From Verrucomicrobiales bacterium (GTDB lineage: Bacteria; Verrucomicrobiota; Verrucomicrobiia; Verrucomicrobiales; DEV007): a stretch of DNA of 64,000 bases. The DNA is taken from assembly GCA_021648365.1 (NCBI GenBank), contig JAKISY010000009.1:6975-70974 (forward strand). Direction: 5' to 3'. Made by a program: the position numbers and the translations under genes. The notes beneath the pieces were generated by a model. The model made no database searches. It was not told the origin of the DNA and worked only from the letters and a program-made list of their open reading frames with translations. This document shows, piece after piece, positions 6,264 through 51,851 of the stretch (positions are counted from its first letter, which is position 1; each line of letters opens with the position of its first letter).

Positions 6264-6408
6264 GTAAATGTGGCGCGCAATGGCATTGCGTGGAGGAACC
6301 GACTCGAGGGAATACACGGATTGCCAATCCGTGCCACGTTGCGAAGGAAGCTTTGGGCAAGTAAGTGGGACGCAATGGCATTGCGTGGGGCGACGGGGTA
6401 GTTCGAGG
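6264..6408. repeat. two ~45-nt direct repeat units, each carrying the palindrome ACGCAATGGCATTGCGT, flanking the palindrome ACGGATTGCCAATCCGT
   Basis: Unit 1 is at about 6264..6310 (palindrome core 6276..6290). Unit 2 is at about 6361..6408 (palindrome 6370..6386). The central palindrome is at 6316..6332. All lie in the 275-nt spacer between the dehydrogenase stop (6501) and the sulfatase start (6225). Confidence 0.7.
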
Positions 6409-17676: not shown

Positions 17677-17704
17677 AATGGCACTTAGTTAACTAAGTGC
17701 CATT
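17677..17704. promoter_or_regulatory. perfect 28-bp palindrome in the bcp / pgsA divergent intergenic region
   Basis: The sequence is AATGGCACTTAGTTAACTAAGTGCCATT. The half-site (AA)TGGCACTTAGTG also occurs at 12117..12130 and 41882..41893. Confidence 0.5.
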
Positions 17705-17782
17705 GCACCTAATTCCTAATTGCTTTCGGGTAATAACCTCCAGCTATCTCCACTTCGTTACGATTCTTAATTCTTAATTCAC

Positions 17783-18391
17783 ATGACCACCGCCAACAAA
17801 ATCACCATCACCCGGATCGCCCTGATTCCAGTGTTTGTGACCTTTGCCTTTTTGTATGGCGCTAGTGTGCAATCTGGAGACCCGCAAATCAACTGGCGCT
17901 ATGCCGCCCTGATTACTTTTGCCATCGCAGCCCTCAGCGACGGACTCGATGGTTATGTCGCCCGCCACTACAATCAGATCAGCCGACTCGGCATCCTGCT
18001 CGATCCGCTCGCCGACAAAGCGCTGATGCTCGCCGCCGTATTCACCCTGAGCTTTGCCCGCTGGCCAGTCAGCTTCCCCATCTGGTTCACCGCCTTTGTC
18101 TTCATCCGCGAGTTCATCATCCTCAACGGCATCGCCATCCTGCATCGCATCAACGGCAAAGTCCCGATCAAACCACACTGGATCAGCAAATCCTGCACCG
18201 CCCTGCAAGTGACCGCCATCGTATGGCTGATGCTCGACTTTCGAAGTGACAGCGACCCGCCGATGTTCCTGCTCTACCTCGCCGGCTTTTTCACCGTGCT
18301 CTCAGCCCTGCATTATATCCTCGAAGGTGTTCGCCAGATCAAAGAACACGGCAAACCCTTGCCCGGTACCAATGCTGATGGTAGTTATTAA
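17783..18391 (+). CDS. pgsA: CDP-diacylglycerol--glycerol-3-phosphate 3-phosphatidyltransferase
   Basis: CDP-alcohol phosphatidyltransferase motif DGLDGYVARHYNQISRLGILLDPLADK, in a 202-aa membrane protein. Confidence 0.85.
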   Translation: MTTANKITITRIALIPVFVTFAFLYGASVQSGDPQINWRYAALITFAIAALSDGLDGYVARHYNQISRLGILLDPLADKALMLAAVFTLSFARWPVSFPIWFTAFVFIREFIILNGIAILHRINGKVPIKPHWISKSCTALQVTAIVWLMLDFRSDSDPPMFLLYLAGFFTVLSALHYILEGVRQIKEHGKPLPGTNADGSY

Positions 18392-25228: not shown

Positions 25229-25340
25229 CCAACATCCCTGCTCCCTCCATTTGTAGCGCAGCCGATCCAGCTGCTTCCTCATCAGTTGCCTGATCAAACA
25301 AAGCCGTTTAATCCAACTAGCATTTTCTACTTGTGCTATC

Positions 25341-25598
25341 GTGCTACCAGTGAAAATGTCTTTGGTTTTGGATGAAAGTAACTTTCGAGACAAGTTATCA
25401 ATTTGGACTTATGTATTCCTTGTTGTTGTTATTTTTGCCTGTTTTATTTTGGCAAAATGGACTCGAGAAGGTTACTCAAAACTTACCTTTAGGGTAGGGA
25501 TTTTTGGCTTAGTCAATCTGTTACTCATTTTAGCTTCGCCTGCGCCGTGCGCTTCTATTTACTGGGTATTTTTACACTGTAATACGCGTTCCTCATAA
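25341..25598 (+). CDS. possible small two-TM membrane protein (hypothetical)
   Basis: 85-aa ORF (GTG start, ATG at 25356) with two hydrophobic segments. AT-rich, with no homology recognised. Confidence 0.3.
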   Translation: MLPVKMSLVLDESNFRDKLSIWTYVFLVVVIFACFILAKWTREGYSKLTFRVGIFGLVNLLLILASPAPCASIYWVFLHCNTRSS

Positions 25599-25971
25599 AC
25601 TTCGCGTGATTCATAGTTGGTAGGGGATTTTTCACCATGAAGAAATTGAAGGACGGGAAGGCAGGACGGAATAAGGGTTCTGTATTTTGAGTTTAGTATT
25701 CTTCATGAACTTCGTGTGCTTCATGGTGAATTGTGTTTCTGAGGATAACTGCGCAAAACGGTACAGAATAACCTCTCTCCATGTCTGGCGTTCTGAACAT
25801 CGATTCCAGAAACTGCAAAACGAACGCGCCAGAAAAACCTAGGACCGTTACGCCGCTGCCCCGCGCTTCCGCGAAACAAGATACCTACCGCTAATAGAAA
25901 CCCATAGCACAGGTTGAACATCTGTTTCACAGTGTTCCTGTGAAACAGTCTAGGCAGTGAGGAACCTCCCC

Positions 25972-36200: not shown

Positions 36201-37825
36201 CCGCACAAGCTGCCGGTATCAATAATGATCGCCGCGGAGTCGATGCATTGGTCGCCCTCGTTCGCAACGACACCGCCCCCGTCGCCCGCGAAGCTGCCGC
36301 CTCGCTCGGCATGATCGGCAACAAAAAAGCCGTGCCCGGCATCCTCGCCACCCTCGACCGCGAAATGGATCGCCACCAAGAACACGCTATGATCTACGCT
36401 CTCATCGAGCTCAATGACTACAAAAACACCGCCAAAGCTCTAGAATCCGAACACCCCCTTGTGATCAGCCGTGCGCTCTGGGCACTCGATCAAATGGATA
36501 GCTCCAAATTGCAGCCAGGCGACGTTCTCACCCTGCTCGATCGCGATGATGAACAACTCGGCAAAACCGCCACTCAAATCGCTAAACGCCACCCTGAGTG
36601 GGATGGAGCCATCGCCAACCGTTTTTTTGAATGGCTCGATGACAAAAAAACGCTGACTCCCTCTCAGCATAATACCATCAGCCTGTTGGCACCGAGTTTC
36701 ATCACCACTCCACCCATGTTCCCCATCGTCGCTCAGCTGCTCAACAGCGAAGATGACAAACAAAAAGAACTCGGTTTTGCGATCATCGCTGCTAGTGACC
36801 AATCTCCCCTACCAGAGACTTGGACTCCTGCTTTCAAAAAAGCACTAACCAGCAAAGACCAACAACAACTGCTGCATGCGCTCAACGCTTTAGCTAAAAT
36901 CAAAACCGATAGCTTTGATCAAGACCTGCGCAACATCGGCAAAAGTGATCAACAGAGCACCATGATCCGCATCCGTGCCCTGCATGCCGTTTCCACCAAA
37001 AACGCCGTCTTGCACCCCGCTGCCTATCAACTATTCAAAGGTCTGTTGCAAGCCGATGCCAGCCCCTTCCAGAGACTCGAAGCCGCACAAATGCTCGGCA
37101 GTGCCAAACTCACCAAACCTCAGTTGATCGAAATAGCACAGCTCACCATCAATGCCGGCCCGATGGATTTACCACATCTGATCAAAGTTTTTGAAAAACA
37201 ACGCACTCCAGAGATTGGCATGGCGCTTGCCAAAGCTCTACCCAAATCCCCCGGCATCGGCAGCATCCCCGCCACCGAGCTGCAACGTTTATTCACGCAT
37301 TTCGGAGCCGAAGTAACCGCTCAATTCAAACCCACCTTGGACGGACTACTAGCCAAAGCCGAGCAGCAAACTCAACGCCTTGCAGCGATCGAACCCGAAC
37401 TCGACAACGGTGACGCCAAACGAGGGGAAGCCGCCTTCATCGCAGGCAAAGGAGCTTGCATGACCTGTCATAAAATCGGCAACGTCGGACGCTCCATCGG
37501 GCCAGAGCTCACCCACATCGGCAGTATCCGAACCAAACGCGACTTCCTCGAATCCATCCTCTACCCGAGTGAATCCCTCGCCCGCGACTTCGAGTCATTC
37601 TCCGTCACCATGAAAGACGGCGCAGTCCACTTCGGCTTGATCAAAAGAGAAAGCACCGACTCCATCTACGTCACCGACCTAACAGGCAAAGAAACCGCAC
37701 TGCCTAGATCCAATGTGAAATCTGTCGCCCCCGTCCCCATCTCATTGATGCCGCAAGGTCTAGATGCCGCCATGAGCAAACAAGAACTGCTAGACATCAT
37801 CGCCTATTTGAAAGCGAGCCAGTAA
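33284..37825 (+). CDS. fusion protein: S1 sulfatase + PVC-type membrane-bound dehydrogenase beta-propeller + HEAT repeats + CxxCH heme-binding domain
   Basis: Start at MITLRLFSQTLLALTACTLL (signal peptide). The sulfatase part has NVIFILTDNHG, canonical CSPTRATFLTG, GKWHLG and ADQG. The propeller part has ATFDEYGRLFVAES and DVHGPFLHPNGRIYW. HEAT-like repeats include DPILRRNAVWAL and DESVRQAAA. The C-terminus has CMTCHKIG ... SLMPQGL. It is a single 1513-codon frame. Confidence 0.85.
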   Translation: MITLRLFSQTLLALTACTLLCAPSSQAAGKKKPNVIFILTDNHGAWSLGCYGNKDIRTPHIDKMAAEGVRFTNAFANNAVCSPTRATFLTGLMQSQHGVHNFLHGKNLQVGPDQRNTLANFTSLPEVLKKNGYSCGLVGKWHLGNNTESNEGLDDYWVTLPAGGTSTFHGATIIEDGKLRKEPEYLTTFWTKHALKFIDQSVKTPDKPFFLYLAYNGPYGLSRYQLKSSGNRHAKYYADKDLPSFPRGVIHPWEYNNREYFGNPVSIRRYAEELSAIDDGVGELMQKLKDLGIDEDTLVIFAADQGWAGGQHGFWGMGDHTRPINAFDFSMKIPMIFRQPGKIPAGNTPDIHVTNYDFMPSVLSYLGMGEQMPTAPKSPGRDFSPAMLGQKTDKWDNSVFYEYESLRCVRSGDWKYIERFEDGYDELYDLKNDPDERHNLINEEKSLAKKTELKKQLDDFFAVNVEKKYDLWNGGISQPKTLVWGKEAQDRLKANLAKGRGTIPNVFDPSFSPPSMTLPDGYIAEVAAAPPLVERPMMATFDEYGRLFVAESSGVNLNDKELDKQKPHSIKLLVDTDNDGIFDKATVFADNMTFPQGALWLQDSLYVMSPPSLWRLEDTTGNGVANVREELVTGFKYTGNAADVHGPFLHPNGRIYWCHGRKGHTVVDTDTGRVVSDNKGARIWSCFPDGSDIQVHAGGGMDNPVELDFMDNGDIVGSINLFYGRPRGDTLNHWIHGGVYPRYDQQSVIDEFKSTGPLLTEFHNFGHVAVSGMMRYRSAHVNPQWKDNIFTTHFNTQQVTRTVIKQQGSTYASVKTVPFLKINDPGVHITDVLEDPNGDLLVIDTGGWFRQGCPNSQVARPDISGAIYRIRKPGLRDRKQDQWGKNLEWKKASFDEVAHRLNHDSFSIREKASAWLAERGEPSIPALADALESTDPILRRNAVWALCRLPFTQSRELSRKMLTDPDESVRQAAAQAAGINNDRRGVDALVALVRNDTAPVAREAAASLGMIGNKKAVPGILATLDREMDRHQEHAMIYALIELNDYKNTAKALESEHPLVISRALWALDQMDSSKLQPGDVLTLLDRDDEQLGKTATQIAKRHPEWDGAIANRFFEWLDDKKTLTPSQHNTISLLAPSFITTPPMFPIVAQLLNSEDDKQKELGFAIIAASDQSPLPETWTPAFKKALTSKDQQQLLHALNALAKIKTDSFDQDLRNIGKSDQQSTMIRIRALHAVSTKNAVLHPAAYQLFKGLLQADASPFQRLEAAQMLGSAKLTKPQLIEIAQLTINAGPMDLPHLIKVFEKQRTPEIGMALAKALPKSPGIGSIPATELQRLFTHFGAEVTAQFKPTLDGLLAKAEQQTQRLAAIEPELDNGDAKRGEAAFIAGKGACMTCHKIGNVGRSIGPELTHIGSIRTKRDFLESILYPSESLARDFESFSVTMKDGAVHFGLIKRESTDSIYVTDLTGKETALPRSNVKSVAPVPISLMPQGLDAAMSKQELLDIIAYLKASQ

Positions 37826-37921
37826 ACCTCCCCTGAATAGCTCCATGCTTTGAATAAGTGCAAATTTCGACTTGCTGTAGTAGTCCTATTCATGCCCTCA
37901 CCCAGGCGTAAAAACTAAACT

Positions 37922-38125
37922 CAGAACACCTGACTTAGGGCGACCTTATTCTGATACCACTCTGAACTGCCGTCCGCAAAATATTAGAACTTTACGCATT
38001 AACATCAGTCCGTGGAATGGATTGGCAATCCGTTTTTTCTCGTTTTGGTATCACTTTGAATTTTAATCTCAAATTTAACGATTCCCATTCCAACAGCATT
38101 TCCCAAGGACGTGTCAGGTGTTCTG
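37922..38125. mobile_element. MITE-like non-autonomous element, copy 1 (204 nt)
   Basis: Terminal inverted repeats CAGAACACCTGAC...GTCAGGTGTTCTG. Flanked by a 5-bp direct duplication AAACT (37917..37921 and 38126..38130). Internal nested inverted repeat GATACCA (37953)/TGGTATC (38046). About 70-75 percent identical by eye to copy 2. Confidence 0.75.
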
Positions 38126-38128
38126 AAA

Positions 38129-38597
38129 CTACTCGTATCTGAAAAACTGCGCTAGTAAGGAATGGTATTGCTCAAAACTTGAAAGATTGTTATGCCCGCT
38201 TTGTTGCACCACTCGCACAGAGACTTGGGATCGAGGGAAGGCATTTACCAGTCGCTGCGAATGCTTCCTAGCTATGACTTCGTCCTTGCCCGCAATGATG
38301 ATCAGCGTTTTAGCCTTGATGGAATGAACCCTGCTCAATGAATCATACAGCATAAGCATTGTAAACAACAGGTTCGCCATTCCCCCCAAAGTAAATAATC
38401 GCTTTCTCCTTGTTTTTGTTAAGAACGATAACCTCAATGGACTCTCCTCCATTCTCAAAAACAAGTTGATCATAGGGATGGTCAATCCGAGCCGTCGGAA
38501 AGTAAAGAAAGCTCCGCTGAAATACAAAAAGCAGCAGTCCTACCAAGAGATACATTGCCAAGTAAAACATCAGTCTTTTTTTATTACGCTTACTCAT
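38129..38597 (-). pseudogene. decayed alpha/beta hydrolase (internal deletion plus frameshift)
   Basis: One frame holds the N-terminal part (MSKRNKK...IIYFGGNGEP, 38343..38597). Another frame holds the C-terminal part (KTLIIIAGKDEVI...SGHNNL...). Total length is about 156 codons versus about 260 expected. The nucleophile-elbow region is absent. AT-rich. Confidence 0.6.
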
Positions 38598-43270: not shown

Positions 43271-43391
43271 GCCTCACCAATAGGCATTCGACAAAAAACG
43301 CTCGAACAAATCGGTAAAACCTTATTTGTCAACTCGCCCAATACGGAGCCGACATCGGATAAGAGGCTCGCATGAGGTTCCCCGCCATCAT

Positions 43392-43640
43392 CAGAACACC
43401 AGACATGGGATAAGCATATTTTGATACCACTCTGAACTAATGCCGCAGAATATTAGAACTTTGAGCGTTAGCACCAGCAGCATGTGGCATGGATTGGCAA
43501 TTTGCCTTCGGGTAGTTTCCTCCAGCTGTCTTCGCTACGCTACGGCTGTGTTTTCTGTATCGGTATCACTTTCAACTGTAATCTCAAATGTAGCTCCCCC
43601 TATTCCAACAACATATTTTCAGAACGTGTCCGGTGTTCTG
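43392..43640. mobile_element. MITE-like non-autonomous element, copy 2 (249 nt)
   Basis: TIRs CAGAACACCAGACA...TGTCCGGTGTTCTG. Flanked by a 5-bp duplication ATCAT (43387..43391 and 43641..43645). Same orientation as copy 1, with about 45 nt of extra internal sequence. Confidence 0.75.
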
Positions 43641-43660
43641 ATCATGGCTAAAATCCAACG

Positions 43661-43867
43661 ATGAAAGTCACTTTCGACAAAGCTCACGGCAAATACAAAA
43701 AAGGCTACCAGACCATCGAGTTCGATCCACCCTACAAACGCTACGTCGGCGACGCTGCCGATTTCGCCAAAATCCTACGCGGCGAAAAAGAATCAGACTT
43801 TTCACCGCAACACGATCTCGCCGTACAAAAAGCCGTGTTACAAGCTTCAGCACTCCCTCTCGCTTGA
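43661..43867 (+). pseudogene. probable C-terminal remnant of a Gfo/Idh/MocA-type oxidoreductase
   Basis: 68-aa ORF ending ...DFAKILRGEKESDFSPQHDLAVQKAVLQASALP, resembling the C-terminal end of Gfo/Idh/MocA proteins. No Rossmann N-terminal part lies upstream. Confidence 0.35.
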
Positions 43868-43926
43868 CACTTATCATCAGCGAGTGTTTATAAAACTATC
43901 TAAAGCCACACACTCGTTTTTATACT

Positions 43927-45375: not shown

Positions 45376-45481
45376 CTTGGATTTCCGCATAATCCATCGC
45401 ATAGTGAGTAAGCGTGTCCCTTGAACGATCAAGGCACATCGAGTATCTAGTTTTCCACCTTCAACCCACCCACACACACGC

Positions 45482-45760
45482 ATGGAGTTCGACTGGCTCG
45501 ACGTTCATTTTGACCTCAAAAAAATCAGTCCTCGAGAAGTCGAGGAGTCATTTGAGGACCCGTTTGCCATCCGCCTAATTCCTGACCAGGAATTAACGGC
45601 ATCAGACGTGCGCTACATCTGTCTCGCCAAGACCGTGGGTGGTCGCTCCTTATTCTCCATCTTCTGGACTGACGGCAAAAACTGCCGCGTTATTTTCACT
45701 CGTGACATGACCGACAAAGAACACGGCTTTTACGAACGCAAAAACGCCGAATATATTTAA
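45482..45760 (+). CDS. brnT: BrnT-like (DUF497) type II toxin
   Basis: 92 aa. MEFDW start, EVEESFEDPFAI and RVIFTRDMTDKEHGFYE match the BrnT layout. Followed by a BrnA-like gene. Confidence 0.6.
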   Translation: MEFDWLDVHFDLKKISPREVEESFEDPFAIRLIPDQELTASDVRYICLAKTVGGRSLFSIFWTDGKNCRVIFTRDMTDKEHGFYERKNAEYI

Positions 45761-45798
45761 CCTTCTTTCAGCCCCAACCTTTTACCCAAAAACACATT

Positions 45799-46083
45799 GT
45801 GAAAGTTCTAACAGACTGGAAAGACCTACCGGATTTCGAAGACGAAAAACAAGAAGCTCAATTCTGGGCCGACCACATGATCGAACCGCATCTGATGAAT
45901 GCCTCGATCCACAAACCCACCGTCCGAGAATCGACCACCATCACCCTGCGCTTTGATCCGCAAATGCTCTCACGCATCAAACGCATCGCCCGCTCTCGCT
46001 ACCTGAATTATCAAAGTATGATGAAACAATGGCTCAGCGAACGCGTCGAGCAGGAACTACGCAATTCCAATCAAGACAAATAA
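45799..46083 (+). CDS. brnA: BrnA-like antitoxin (CopG/RHH C-terminal domain)
   Basis: GTG start. Motifs PDFEDEKQEAQFWADH, TTITLRFDPQMLSRIKRIARSRYLNYQSMMKQWLSERV. Confidence 0.7.
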   Translation: MKVLTDWKDLPDFEDEKQEAQFWADHMIEPHLMNASIHKPTVRESTTITLRFDPQMLSRIKRIARSRYLNYQSMMKQWLSERVEQELRNSNQDK

Positions 46084-51665: not shown

Positions 51666-51851
51666 TTATAGCATATTATCATAAGTCGTGAAAGTATATA
51701 GCTTGAATACGGCGACATCTTCGTTGCCTGCATACCAGATAATCTTATTTCCACCACCCTCTCTCCAATAAGTTTCGTCAGCATGCACGAAGTCCGCGCT
51801 ACGCATTTTTGAAATTAAATCCTCGCCATCATTGAAGCGATATAGGTTCAA
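51666..51851 (-). mobile_element. IS66-family transposase remnant (about 60 codons)
   Basis: FVHADETYWREGGGNKIIWYAGNEDVAVFKL matches the IS66 DDE-region pattern HADET.WR..G...W.W. There are no flanking transposase sequences, so this is a dead fragment. Confidence 0.5.

What the first reader, a model, noticed from the sequence alone, without database searches (positions are those of the whole stretch)
37917..38130. Previously unannotated MITE-like element with 13-bp TIRs and 5-bp target-site duplication (copy 1)
A 204-nt non-coding element starts CAGAACACCTGAC and ends GTCAGGTGTTCTG, a perfect 13-bp terminal inverted repeat. It is bracketed by the direct duplication AAACT/AAACT. A second copy 5.3 kb away (43392..43640) has the same termini and internal blocks (GATACCACTCTGAACT, AATATTAGAACTTT, ATGGATTGGCAAT, GGTATCACTTT, TAATCTCAAAT, ATTCCAACA). 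That copy has a different 5-bp duplication (ATCAT), so the two are independent transposition events. Nested internal inverted repeats (GATACCA/TGGTATC) let the whole element fold into a long hairpin. No matching transposase is in the window. The IS66 remnant at 51666 is not expected to give 5-bp duplications.
Basis: seen in the sequence. Interest (0 to 1): 0.62.

Follow-up and report, generated by a model that had tools for sequence, protein, structure and literature searches.

The report
Mobile MITE family in Verrucomicrobiota
The two ~200-250-nt repeats are real copies of a small non-coding "jumping" DNA element (a MITE) that has recently moved in uncultured marine Verrucomicrobiota; its ends and insertion scars match the ISH3 family of insertion sequences, so it is a new family of an ordinary kind.

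Summary
Copy 1 (37922-38125, 204 nt) has a perfect 13-bp TIR and AAACT on both sides. Copy 2 (43392-43640, 249 nt) has 12/13 TIRs and ATCAT on both sides. The copies are 76-78% identical, and homology stops exactly at the termini.

The refutation test fails. A sister-strain contig (L004, 92-98% identical flanks) has empty sites at both positions, each with a single 5-mer. A 99%-identical copy sits elsewhere in a hydrothermal-vent metagenome (TSD AATAT). Another is in a Verrucomicrobiota MAG (L001). At least 7 other left flanks occur in one metagenome, where depth is about 5-12x that of the flanks.

New here: the target 5-mers are nearly all A-NNN-T and the termini are CAGAAC...GTTCTG. Seven ISH3-family insertion sequences I examined, archaeal and cyanobacterial, end in CAGTA...TACTG with 5-bp A-NNN-T duplications. 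An ISH3-type DDE transposase acting in trans is therefore the likeliest driver. None was found, because the rest of the genome could not be searched.

The "whole-element hairpin" and "conserved blocks" are weak. Copy 2 sits in a decayed gene and contains an unrelated high-copy ~55-nt repeat.

Verdict: a new member of a known kind, of modest interest.

The parts
37917..37921 (.). Left target-site duplication of copy 1 (AAACT)
   Evidence: The sister-strain contig L004 has a single AAACT here...GGCGTAAAAACTAAACTACTCGTATC.
37922..38125 (+). MITE copy 1, 204 nt. TIRs are at 37922-37934 and 38113-38125 (13/13).
   Evidence: It is skipped precisely in L004 and in run X1 (209 nt = 204 + 5). It has no conserved ORF and no Rfam family.
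38126..38130 (.). Right target-site duplication of copy 1 (AAACT). It overlaps the stop codon of the minus-strand hydrolase pseudogene.
43387..43391 (.). Left target-site duplication of copy 2 (ATCAT)
   Evidence: L004 has CCCCGCCATCATGGCT with one ATCAT, inside its AP_endonuc_2 gene.
43392..43640 (+). MITE copy 2, 249 nt. TIRs are at 43392-43404 and 43628-43640. It has the same orientation as copy 1 and is 76-78% identical to it.
43497..43553 (+). Segment of about 55 nt nested in copy 2 and absent from copy 1 and from the L001 copy. It is an independent high-copy short repeat.
   Evidence: Alignments. Depth is 295-380 in X1 and 70-90 in X3, and several long X3 contigs match only this segment. 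A second window copy is at 17716-17768.
43641..43645 (.). Right target-site duplication of copy 2 (ATCAT)
43296..43386 (+). Decayed remnant of the AP_endonuc_2 (xylose-isomerase-like TIM barrel) gene into which copy 2 inserted. About 25 nt more of the gene follows the element, at 43646 to about 43670.
   Evidence: tblastn of the intact L004 protein (residues about 157-180) shows a frameshift and an in-frame stop. The nucleotide alignment spans the reconstructed empty site.
25737..25795 (-). Degenerate solo left end of the same family (TCAGAACgCCAGACATGGaGAGAGGTTATTCTG...), preceded by ATGTT. No right end was found.
   Evidence: nhmmer with the 3-copy profile gives E = 0.0025 over model positions 1-60. 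This is a weak hit and is tentative.

Best explanation
[quoted passage not shown] They are about 204-nt non-coding DNA transposons with 13-16-bp terminal inverted repeats (CAGAACACC-N-GAC...).

The likely mechanism is as follows. A DDE transposase encoded elsewhere in the genome binds the two ends, excises or copies the element, and joins it to a target cut with a 5-bp stagger. Repair of that stagger gives a 5-bp duplication, with a strong preference for A-NNN-T, AT-rich targets. The driver is most likely an ISH3-family (IS4-related) transposase.

What is shown: element structure, the duplications, independent insertions, empty sites, multiple copies, and recent activity (99%-identical copies at different sites in different samples).

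What is inferred: the trans-acting transposase and its family. I put about 0.9 on 'mobile MITE' and about 0.55 on 'ISH3-type transposase'.

Copy 1 landed between two convergent genes. Copy 2 landed inside an AP_endonuc_2 coding sequence that is now a remnant.
For: Structure:
- TIRs and duplications are as described.
- Homology ends at the termini.
- There is no conserved reading frame, no Rfam family, and no promoter-like or terminator-like site in copy 1.

Mobility:
- L004, a sister strain with 92-98% identical flanks, lacks both copies and keeps one 5-mer at each site.
- An X3 contig has a copy with 2 differences in 207 nt at another site, flanked AATAT/AATAT.
- L001, in a Verrucomicrobiota MAG, has a 209-nt copy that is 81-83% identical, flanked AAATT/AACTT.
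- Seven different left-flank contigs and 5-6 right-flank contigs occur in X1.
- Element depth is about 45-180 against 14 for the flanks.

Target 5-mers seen: AAACT, ATCAT (at two loci), AATAT (at three), AACAT, AAATT (at two to three). There is one exception, CGGTT.

ISH3 link:
- De Palmenaer et al. [quoted passage not shown]
- I read seven ISH3-family elements directly. ISH27-2 is ATGAT|CAGTACATC...GTACTG|ATGAT. ISHvo22 has ATACT. The Methanomethylovorans element has AATGT. The Tolypothrix element is AAATT|CAGTAGACC. The Trichormus element has ACATT. The Nostoc element is AGAAA|CAGTAAACC.
- The MITE end CAGAACACC shares CAG, A5, A7 and C9 with all of them, and C8 with the bacterial ones.
- Bacterial ISH3-family transposases exist, in cyanobacterial plasmids.
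Against: - No transposase with these ends was found. There is none in the window, L001, L003 or L004, and the rest of the genome could not be searched.
- The fourth terminal base is A. All seven ISH3 elements I read, and the published CRGT consensus, have T there.
- T|CAG...CTG|A is invariant, so a 14-bp TIR with a 3-bp duplication is formally possible.
- Only four full-length copies could be read base by base. The other flanks come from 30-letter loose ends of Logan contigs.
- The family is rare in public collections. There was one true hit among 185,579 species genomes, and none in JGI metagenomes, IMG/VR, plasmids or phages with the patterns used.
- I found no report of ISH3 elements in Verrucomicrobiota.
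Confidence: 0.85

Rival explanations
1. The element is the same kind of mobile MITE but is really 206 nt, with 14-bp TIRs (TCAGAACACC...GGTGTTCTGA) and a 3-bp duplication. It would then be moved by a transposase family that makes 3-bp duplications, such as IS5/PIF-Harbinger-like or IS3-like families.
For: T at -1 and A at +1 are present in every flank read: 6-8 left flanks and 7 right flanks. This includes the one case (X2, CGGTT) where position -5 is not A. The empty sites cannot distinguish the two models ('both = 5').
Against: The three-base cores (AAC, TCA, ATA, AAT/ACT) do not fit the TNA or ANT targets of IS5-type elements. The ends are not the TG...CA of IS3. The same T|CAG...CTG|A picture appears in six of the seven bona fide ISH3-family ISs I read. 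In the seventh (Nostoc, AGAAA|CAG...CTG|AGAAA) the duplication is plainly 5 bp and the T is absent. In this model A at -5 and T at +5 would need a separate explanation.
Confidence: 0.1
2. It is not mobile. It would be a conserved, structured intergenic repeat or small RNA gene that is ancestrally present, with L004 having lost it by deletion between short direct repeats.
For: The nested inverted repeats give a somewhat stable fold (z = -2.35 and -1.63). Position 10 of the TIR co-varies in two copies (T-A and A-T).
Against: Copies lie in unrelated contexts: between convergent genes, inside a coding sequence, and in other genomes. Each has its own 5-mer repeated on both sides. Two independent exact 'deletions' at 5-bp repeats in one strain are implausible. 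A 99%-identical copy occurs at a different site while the surrounding genomes differ by 2-8%. There is no Rfam match and no RNA run holds the region.
Confidence: 0.02
3. It is a MITE mobilised by another 5-bp-duplicating system, such as Tn3-derived TIMEs, IS1634, IS1380, IS481, or Mu/Tn7-like elements.
For: A 5-bp duplication is not unique to ISH3 (established knowledge, and for IS1634 and IS701 relatives).
Against: The ends do not match the known termini of the alternatives, which I give from established knowledge and from the table in PMC2266710:
- Tn3: about 38-bp TIRs starting GGGG
- IS1380: CC
- IS481: TGT
- Mu/Tn7: TG...CA
- IS1634: C-----YT

The combination of an A-NNN-T preference with CAG ends is reported for ISH3, not for these.
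Confidence: 0.05

Closest known systems
ISH3-family insertion sequences (ISH27-2, ISH3B, ISHvo22; cyanobacterial 'ISH3 family' elements on Nostoc, Tolypothrix and Trichormus plasmids)
   Same: The terminal trinucleotide is CAG...CTG, with further shared positions (A5, A7, C9; C8 in the bacterial ones). The duplication is 5 bp. There is a strong A-NNN-T, AT-rich target preference, and even identical target 5-mers (AAATT).
   Different: The MITE is 204 nt with no transposase gene, against 1278-1525 bp for the ISs. The fourth base is A, not T. The host is Verrucomicrobiota, for which I found no reported ISH3 element. There is no sequence similarity beyond the first 9 bases or so.
Prokaryotic MITEs in general (e.g. 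Correia elements of Neisseria, RUP of Streptococcus, MITEAba12, Nezha of cyanobacteria; reviewed in PMC10969869). These names come from my own knowledge and the search list; I did not read the papers.
   Same: The element is short, non-coding, bounded by TIRs and flanked by duplications. It is multi-copy and mostly intergenic, shows presence/absence polymorphism between strains, and depends on a transposase in trans.
   Different: There is no sequence relationship. Those families give TA (IS630-type) or 9-bp (MITEAba12) duplications, not 5-bp A-NNN-T. No promoter, terminator or host-factor site could be shown in this element.
Tn3-derived inverted-repeat miniature elements (TIMEs)
   Same: Non-autonomous, with a 5-bp duplication.
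   Different: TIMEs carry Tn3-type TIRs of about 38 bp starting GGGG (established knowledge). This element has 13-16-bp CAGAAC TIRs.

Membership tests
MITE (non-autonomous TIR transposon) | Short (less than about 500 bp) and without coding capacity | tested here: met
   The copies are 204, 249 and 209 nt. No reading frame is conserved among the three copies.
MITE (non-autonomous TIR transposon) | Terminal inverted repeats at the exact limits of copy-to-copy homology | tested here: met
   TIRs are 13/13 (copy 1), 12/13 between the arms (copy 2) and 13/13 (L001). Flanks are unrelated.
MITE (non-autonomous TIR transposon) | Target-site duplication that differs between copies | tested here: met
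   The duplications are AAACT, ATCAT, AATAT (X3) and AAATT/AACTT (L001, 4/5 match).
MITE (non-autonomous TIR transposon) | Empty sites in related genomes, with one copy of the target | tested here: met
   L004 is empty at both sites.
MITE (non-autonomous TIR transposon) | Many copies per genome | tested here: met
   There are two copies plus one degenerate end in 64 kb. Depth is about 5-12x the flank depth, and at least 7 distinct left flanks occur in X1. The per-genome number is only an estimate from a metagenome.
MITE (non-autonomous TIR transposon) | A cognate autonomous IS with the same TIRs | tested here: inconclusive
   None is in the window or in the fetched loci.
ISH3 family (as the mobilising system) | 5-bp target duplication | tested here: met
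   The family value of 4-5 bp is in PMC2266710. Seven family members I read all have 5 bp. A 3-bp reading is not formally excluded.
ISH3 family (as the mobilising system) | [quoted passage not shown] | tested here: met
   For the MITE, all 5-mers read on both sides, and all but one single-sided flank, are A-NNN-T. For the ISH3 elements, 6 of 7 are, and the paper states the same.
ISH3 family (as the mobilising system) | Conserved termini CRGT... | tested here: inconclusive
   The MITE has CAGA, so 3 of 4 match. It also shares A5, A7 and C9 with the seven elements read. The T at position 4 is replaced by A.
ISH3 family (as the mobilising system) | ISH3-type DDE transposase present in the host and able to bind these ends | not testable with these tools
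   tblastn of four ISH3 transposases against the window, L001, L003 and L004 found nothing. The remainder of the host genome and the metagenome assemblies cannot be searched here.
IS630/Tc1-mariner-derived MITE | TA duplication | tested here: not met
   The flanks are 5-mers such as AAACT and ATCAT. No TA|...|TA is seen.
IS5 / PIF-Harbinger-type MITE | 3-bp TNA (or 4-bp YTAR) duplication | tested here: not met
   Even in the 3-bp reading, the cores are AAC, TCA, ATA and AAT/ACT.
Tn3-derived TIME | TIRs of about 38 bp of Tn3 type (GGGG...) | tested here: not met
   The TIRs are 13-16 bp and start CAGAAC.
IS66 (the fragment in the window) | 8-bp duplication and GTAAGCG-type ends | tested here: not met
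   The duplications are 5 bp and the ends are different. The IS66 transposase fragment at 51666-51851 is only a remnant.
Any Rfam RNA family | Covariance-model match | tested here: not met
   There were no gathering-level hits in the window. The only sub-threshold hit is a chance-level CRISPR-DR30 match at E = 0.56.

The most novel reading that the evidence does not exclude
This would be the first trace of an active ISH3-type transposition system in the PVC superphylum. The family was originally thought to be archaeal, and among bacteria I saw it here only on cyanobacterial plasmids. In this reading an ISH3-type transposase is currently mobilising a dedicated MITE family in marine and hydrothermal Verrucomicrobiota. 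The MITE inactivates genes (AP_endonuc_2), and one subfamily carries a second, far more abundant 55-nt repeat of unknown function as a passenger.
Probability: 0.45. Interest if true: 0.4.

Novelty: new member of a known kind. Interest (0 to 1): 0.3.

Why it matters
This is a clean, fully documented case of recent MITE mobility in uncultured Verrucomicrobiota. It has filled and empty alleles, a gene hit, and near-identical copies in different samples.

It gives annotators a repeat family that breaks assemblies and creates strain-level polymorphism.

It predicts an ISH3-type transposase in a phylum where none has been described, so it extends the known host range and target rule (A-NNN-T) of that family.

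It does not reveal a new mechanism.

Tried and rejected
1. Internal-block pattern ACCACTCTGAAC-N(6-20)-ATATTAGAAC in genome contigs and metagenome contigs gave 0 hits. The blocks turned out to vary between subfamilies: L001 has ATCACTCTGAAC, and X1 has variants with AATAAAAC.
2. Right-end pattern in metagenome contigs and viral contigs, and TIR-pair pattern in viral contigs, all gave 0 hits.
3. blastn of copy 1 against plasmids and phages gave no match.
4. The TIR-pair hit L002 (Wujia sp.) was rejected. It is a roughly 235-nt palindrome with no internal homology.
5. I looked for spurious ORFs of the element in the protein collection as a route to more copies. They are not in the collection.
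6. I tried to extend beyond the window through the look-up of encoding contigs on terminal genes. They are not on record.
7. Search for RNA-seq runs found none.
8. Coding remnants of a transposase inside the MITE: six-frame translations are not conserved. tblastn with four ISH3 transposases found nothing in the window or loci.
9. The weak profile hit at 6299-6339 is an in-CDS palindrome, ACGGATTGGCAATCCGT, and was judged chance.
10. Structured-RNA reading: the fold z-scores are modest. Three of 38 predicted pairs show a two-sided change, but with three sequences this is weak, and no Rfam family matches.
11. I ran no further search on ISH3 transposases. The results carry no taxonomy, and only 8 contig look-ups remained, so finding the one with CAGAACACC ends would have been a lottery.

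Full report
**Observation.** The sequence is as described. Copy 1 runs 37922-38125 (204 nt). It begins CAGAACACCTGAC and ends GTCAGGTGTTCTG, a 13/13 inverted repeat. AAACT lies immediately before it (37917-37921) and after it (38126-38130). Copy 2 runs 43392-43640 (249 nt). It begins CAGAACACCAGAC and ends GTCCGGTGTTCTG, and is bracketed by ATCAT at 43387-43391 and 43641-43645.

The copies align end to end at 76-78% identity. Similarity stops at the termini and the flanks are unrelated. nhmmer gives E = 2e-24 between them. With 0 or 1 mismatch, the 13-mer occurs only at these four ends in the 64-kb window. My arithmetic puts the chance expectation at about 0.08. No Rfam family matches, either at gathering thresholds over the window or at E up to 5 locally. 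No reading frame is conserved.

**Context.** The neighbours are:
- a 1564-aa sulfatase/DUF7133/HEAT protein
- beta-helix proteins
- xylose-isomerase-like TIM barrels
- Gfo/Idh/MocA oxidoreductases
- ftsY

This is a typical PVC-group chromosome. The only public genome with a homologous element is labelled Verrucomicrobiota. The window comes from a 74,205-nt NCBI contig. Copy 1 lies between the convergent sulfatase gene (which ends at 37825) and a minus-strand hydrolase gene whose stop codon overlaps the right-hand AAACT.

**Mobility: empty sites.** Public runs holding this region were found. In run X1 an 8,988-nt contig skips exactly 209 nt (204 + 5), with 5 bases that fit either side of the joint. 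I retrieved a contig of that length as L004 through the identical FtsY protein. It is 92-98% identical to the window on both sides and reads ...GGCGTAAAAACTAAACTACTCGTATC..., with one AAACT and no element.

L004 is also empty at the copy 2 site. There the target lies inside an intact 293-aa AP_endonuc_2 gene, at CCCCGCC-ATCAT-GGCT (codons A-I-M-A). In the window this gene survives only as a remnant of about 120 nt around the element, with a frameshift and a stop. So both window copies are insertions, each duplicating 5 bases of target.

**Mobility: other copies.**
- An X3 (hydrothermal-vent metagenome) contig of 2,048 nt carries a copy differing at 2 of 207 positions from copy 1. It sits in different flanks, with AATAT on both sides.
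- A TIR-pair scan of 185,579 species genomes gave one true homologue: L001:4332-4540 in a Verrucomicrobiota MAG. It is 209 nt, 81-83% identical, and lies between convergent pepA and esterase genes, flanked AAATT/AACTT. The same scan gave one unrelated palindrome in a Wujia MAG.
- In X1, seven different contigs supply left flanks and five to six supply right flanks. Element depth is roughly 45-180 against 14 for the unique flanks.
- A profile of the three copies also detects a degenerate solo left end at 25795-25737 on the minus strand.
- At least three sequence subfamilies exist. Near-identity within a subfamily across samples indicates recent activity.

**Target and duplication length.** The 5-mers read next to the ends are:
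- AAACT
- ATCAT (the window, plus a probable X1 pair)
- AATAT (X3, plus two X1 flanks)
- AACAT
- AAATT (L001's left flank, one X2 flank and one X1 flank)
- ATGTT (beside the degenerate end)
- one exception, CGGTT

The target is therefore A-NNN-T and AT-rich. Because every copy reads T|CAG...CTG|A, a 14-bp TIR with a 3-bp duplication cannot be excluded from these data alone. The empty sites are uninformative on this point.

**Which transposase.** No transposase is in the window apart from an IS66-type fragment at 51666-51851. By established knowledge, IS66 has other ends and makes 8-bp duplications.

The review of IS4-related families (PMC2266710) lists ISH3 with ends CRGT and DRs of 4-5 bp. 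[quoted passage not shown] I checked this on real elements:

| Element | Left 5-mer, termini, right 5-mer |
|---|---|
| ISH27-2 | ATGAT, CAGTACATCAC...GTACTG, ATGAT |
| ISH3B | AGGTT, ..., AAGCT |
| ISHvo22 | ATACT, ..., ATACT |
| Methanomethylovorans | AATGT, CAGTACTTC..., AATGT |
| Nostoc | AGAAA, CAGTAAACC..., AGAAA |
| Tolypothrix | AAATT, CAGTAGACC..., AAATT |
| Trichormus | ACATT, CAGTAGACC..., ACATT |

The MITE (CAGAACACC) shares CAG, A5, A7 and C9 with all of them, and C8 with the bacterial ones. It also shares the 5-bp duplication and the A...T rule, down to identical target words. The Nostoc case shows that in this family the T before CAG belongs to the target, not to the element. 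That favours the 5-bp reading here.

The one mismatch is the fourth base, which is A rather than T. ISH3-family transposases do occur in bacteria, on cyanobacterial plasmids at about 32% identity to ISH27-2. I found no paper linking ISH3 to Verrucomicrobiota. tblastn with four ISH3 transposases finds nothing in the window or in L001, L003 or L004. The cognate element must therefore lie elsewhere, and I could not search for it.

**Structure and internal blocks.** MFE z-scores are -2.35 for copy 1 and -1.63 for copy 2. The three-copy consensus has the TIR stem, the GATACCA/TGGTATC stem, a CCGCA/TGTGG stem and a central GGATT/AATCC hairpin. Three of 38 pairs show a two-sided change, including TIR position 10 (T-A in copy 1, A-T in L001). 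The inner repeats are not symmetric about the centre, so the element is not one long hairpin.

With 71% of columns invariant, the longest invariant run (13) is unremarkable (p = 0.5). The number of runs of 9 or more is borderline (p = 0.054). I therefore do not claim functional internal sites. No sigma-70-like promoter or intrinsic terminator is predicted in copy 1, and no RNA-seq run holds the region.

**Copy 2 extras.** The roughly 45 extra bases of copy 2 (within 43497-43553) belong to a different short repeat. This segment reaches depth 295-380 in X1 and 70-90 in X3, where the MITE itself is at 9 or less. It matches the interior of several long X3 contigs. It recurs at 17716-17768 in the window, with the exact core TTCGGGTA-N4-CCTCCAGCT. 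Its nature is unknown.

**Comparison and verdict.** The element meets every defining feature of a MITE that could be tested, except identification of its autonomous partner. It fails the defining features of IS630-, IS5-, Tn3- and IS66-derived elements. It matches the ISH3 signature in three of four features.

It is a new family of a well-known kind, and I found no description of it. The biology is ordinary: strain polymorphism, a gene hit, assembly breaks. The ISH3 link in Verrucomicrobiota is the only mildly surprising point. Interest is 0.3.

Noticed in passing
window 43497-43553 and 17716-17768: A short repeat of about 55 nt (GGCAATTTGCCTTCGGGTAGTTTCCTCCAGCTGTCTTCGCTACGCTACGGCTGTGTTTTCT). 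It is nested in MITE copy 2 and also sits just upstream of ORF 17783-18391. It is far more abundant than the MITE in runs X1 and X3 (depth 295-380 and 70-90) and is present inside many long contigs. It has no Rfam match. Its function and mobility are unknown.
   Followed up: partly
window 38129-38597 (minus strand): The alpha/beta-hydrolase gene next to copy 1 is a pseudogene. It lacks about 302 nt, which shifts the frame, relative to the intact 256-aa Abhydrolase_1 gene of the sister strain (L004 2114-2884).
   Followed up: partly
window 43296-43900; L004 7583-8988; L003 1-171: This is a strain-variable stretch downstream of ftsY. L004 has intact AP_endonuc_2 and Gfo/Idh/MocA genes. The window keeps only about 120 nt of the first gene (split by the MITE) and a 68-aa ORF (43661-43867) that may be a C-terminal remnant of the second; that reading was not confirmed by Pfam. 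L003, a more distant strain, has ftsY followed directly by the beta-helix gene.
   Followed up: partly
window 25229-25971: A 740-nt gene-free stretch. It holds the degenerate MITE left end (25795-25737, minus strand). Next to it is another small palindromic repeat bounded by CACCATGAAG...CTTCATGGTG, rich in ATGAAG/TTCATG words.
   Followed up: no
window 51666-51851 (minus strand): A fragment of an IS66-type transposase (motif HADETYWREGG) of 61 codons. It is a remnant with no ends identified and is unrelated to the MITE.
   Followed up: partly
window 17681-17702: A perfect 22-nt palindrome, GGCACTTAGTTAACTAAGTGCC, in the divergent intergenic region just before the short repeat at 17716.
   Followed up: no
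L002 3120-3355 (Wujia sp. MAG): A near-perfect palindrome of about 235 nt whose arms happen to contain CAGAACACCGGAC. It is not homologous to the MITE, and its nature was not examined.
   Followed up: no
L003 1725-2325: A BrnT/CopG-type toxin-antitoxin pair lies downstream of the beta-helix gene in the ERR2639424 strain. The window aligns through this region at 88% identity, so it probably carries the pair too (about 45480-46080).
   Followed up: no
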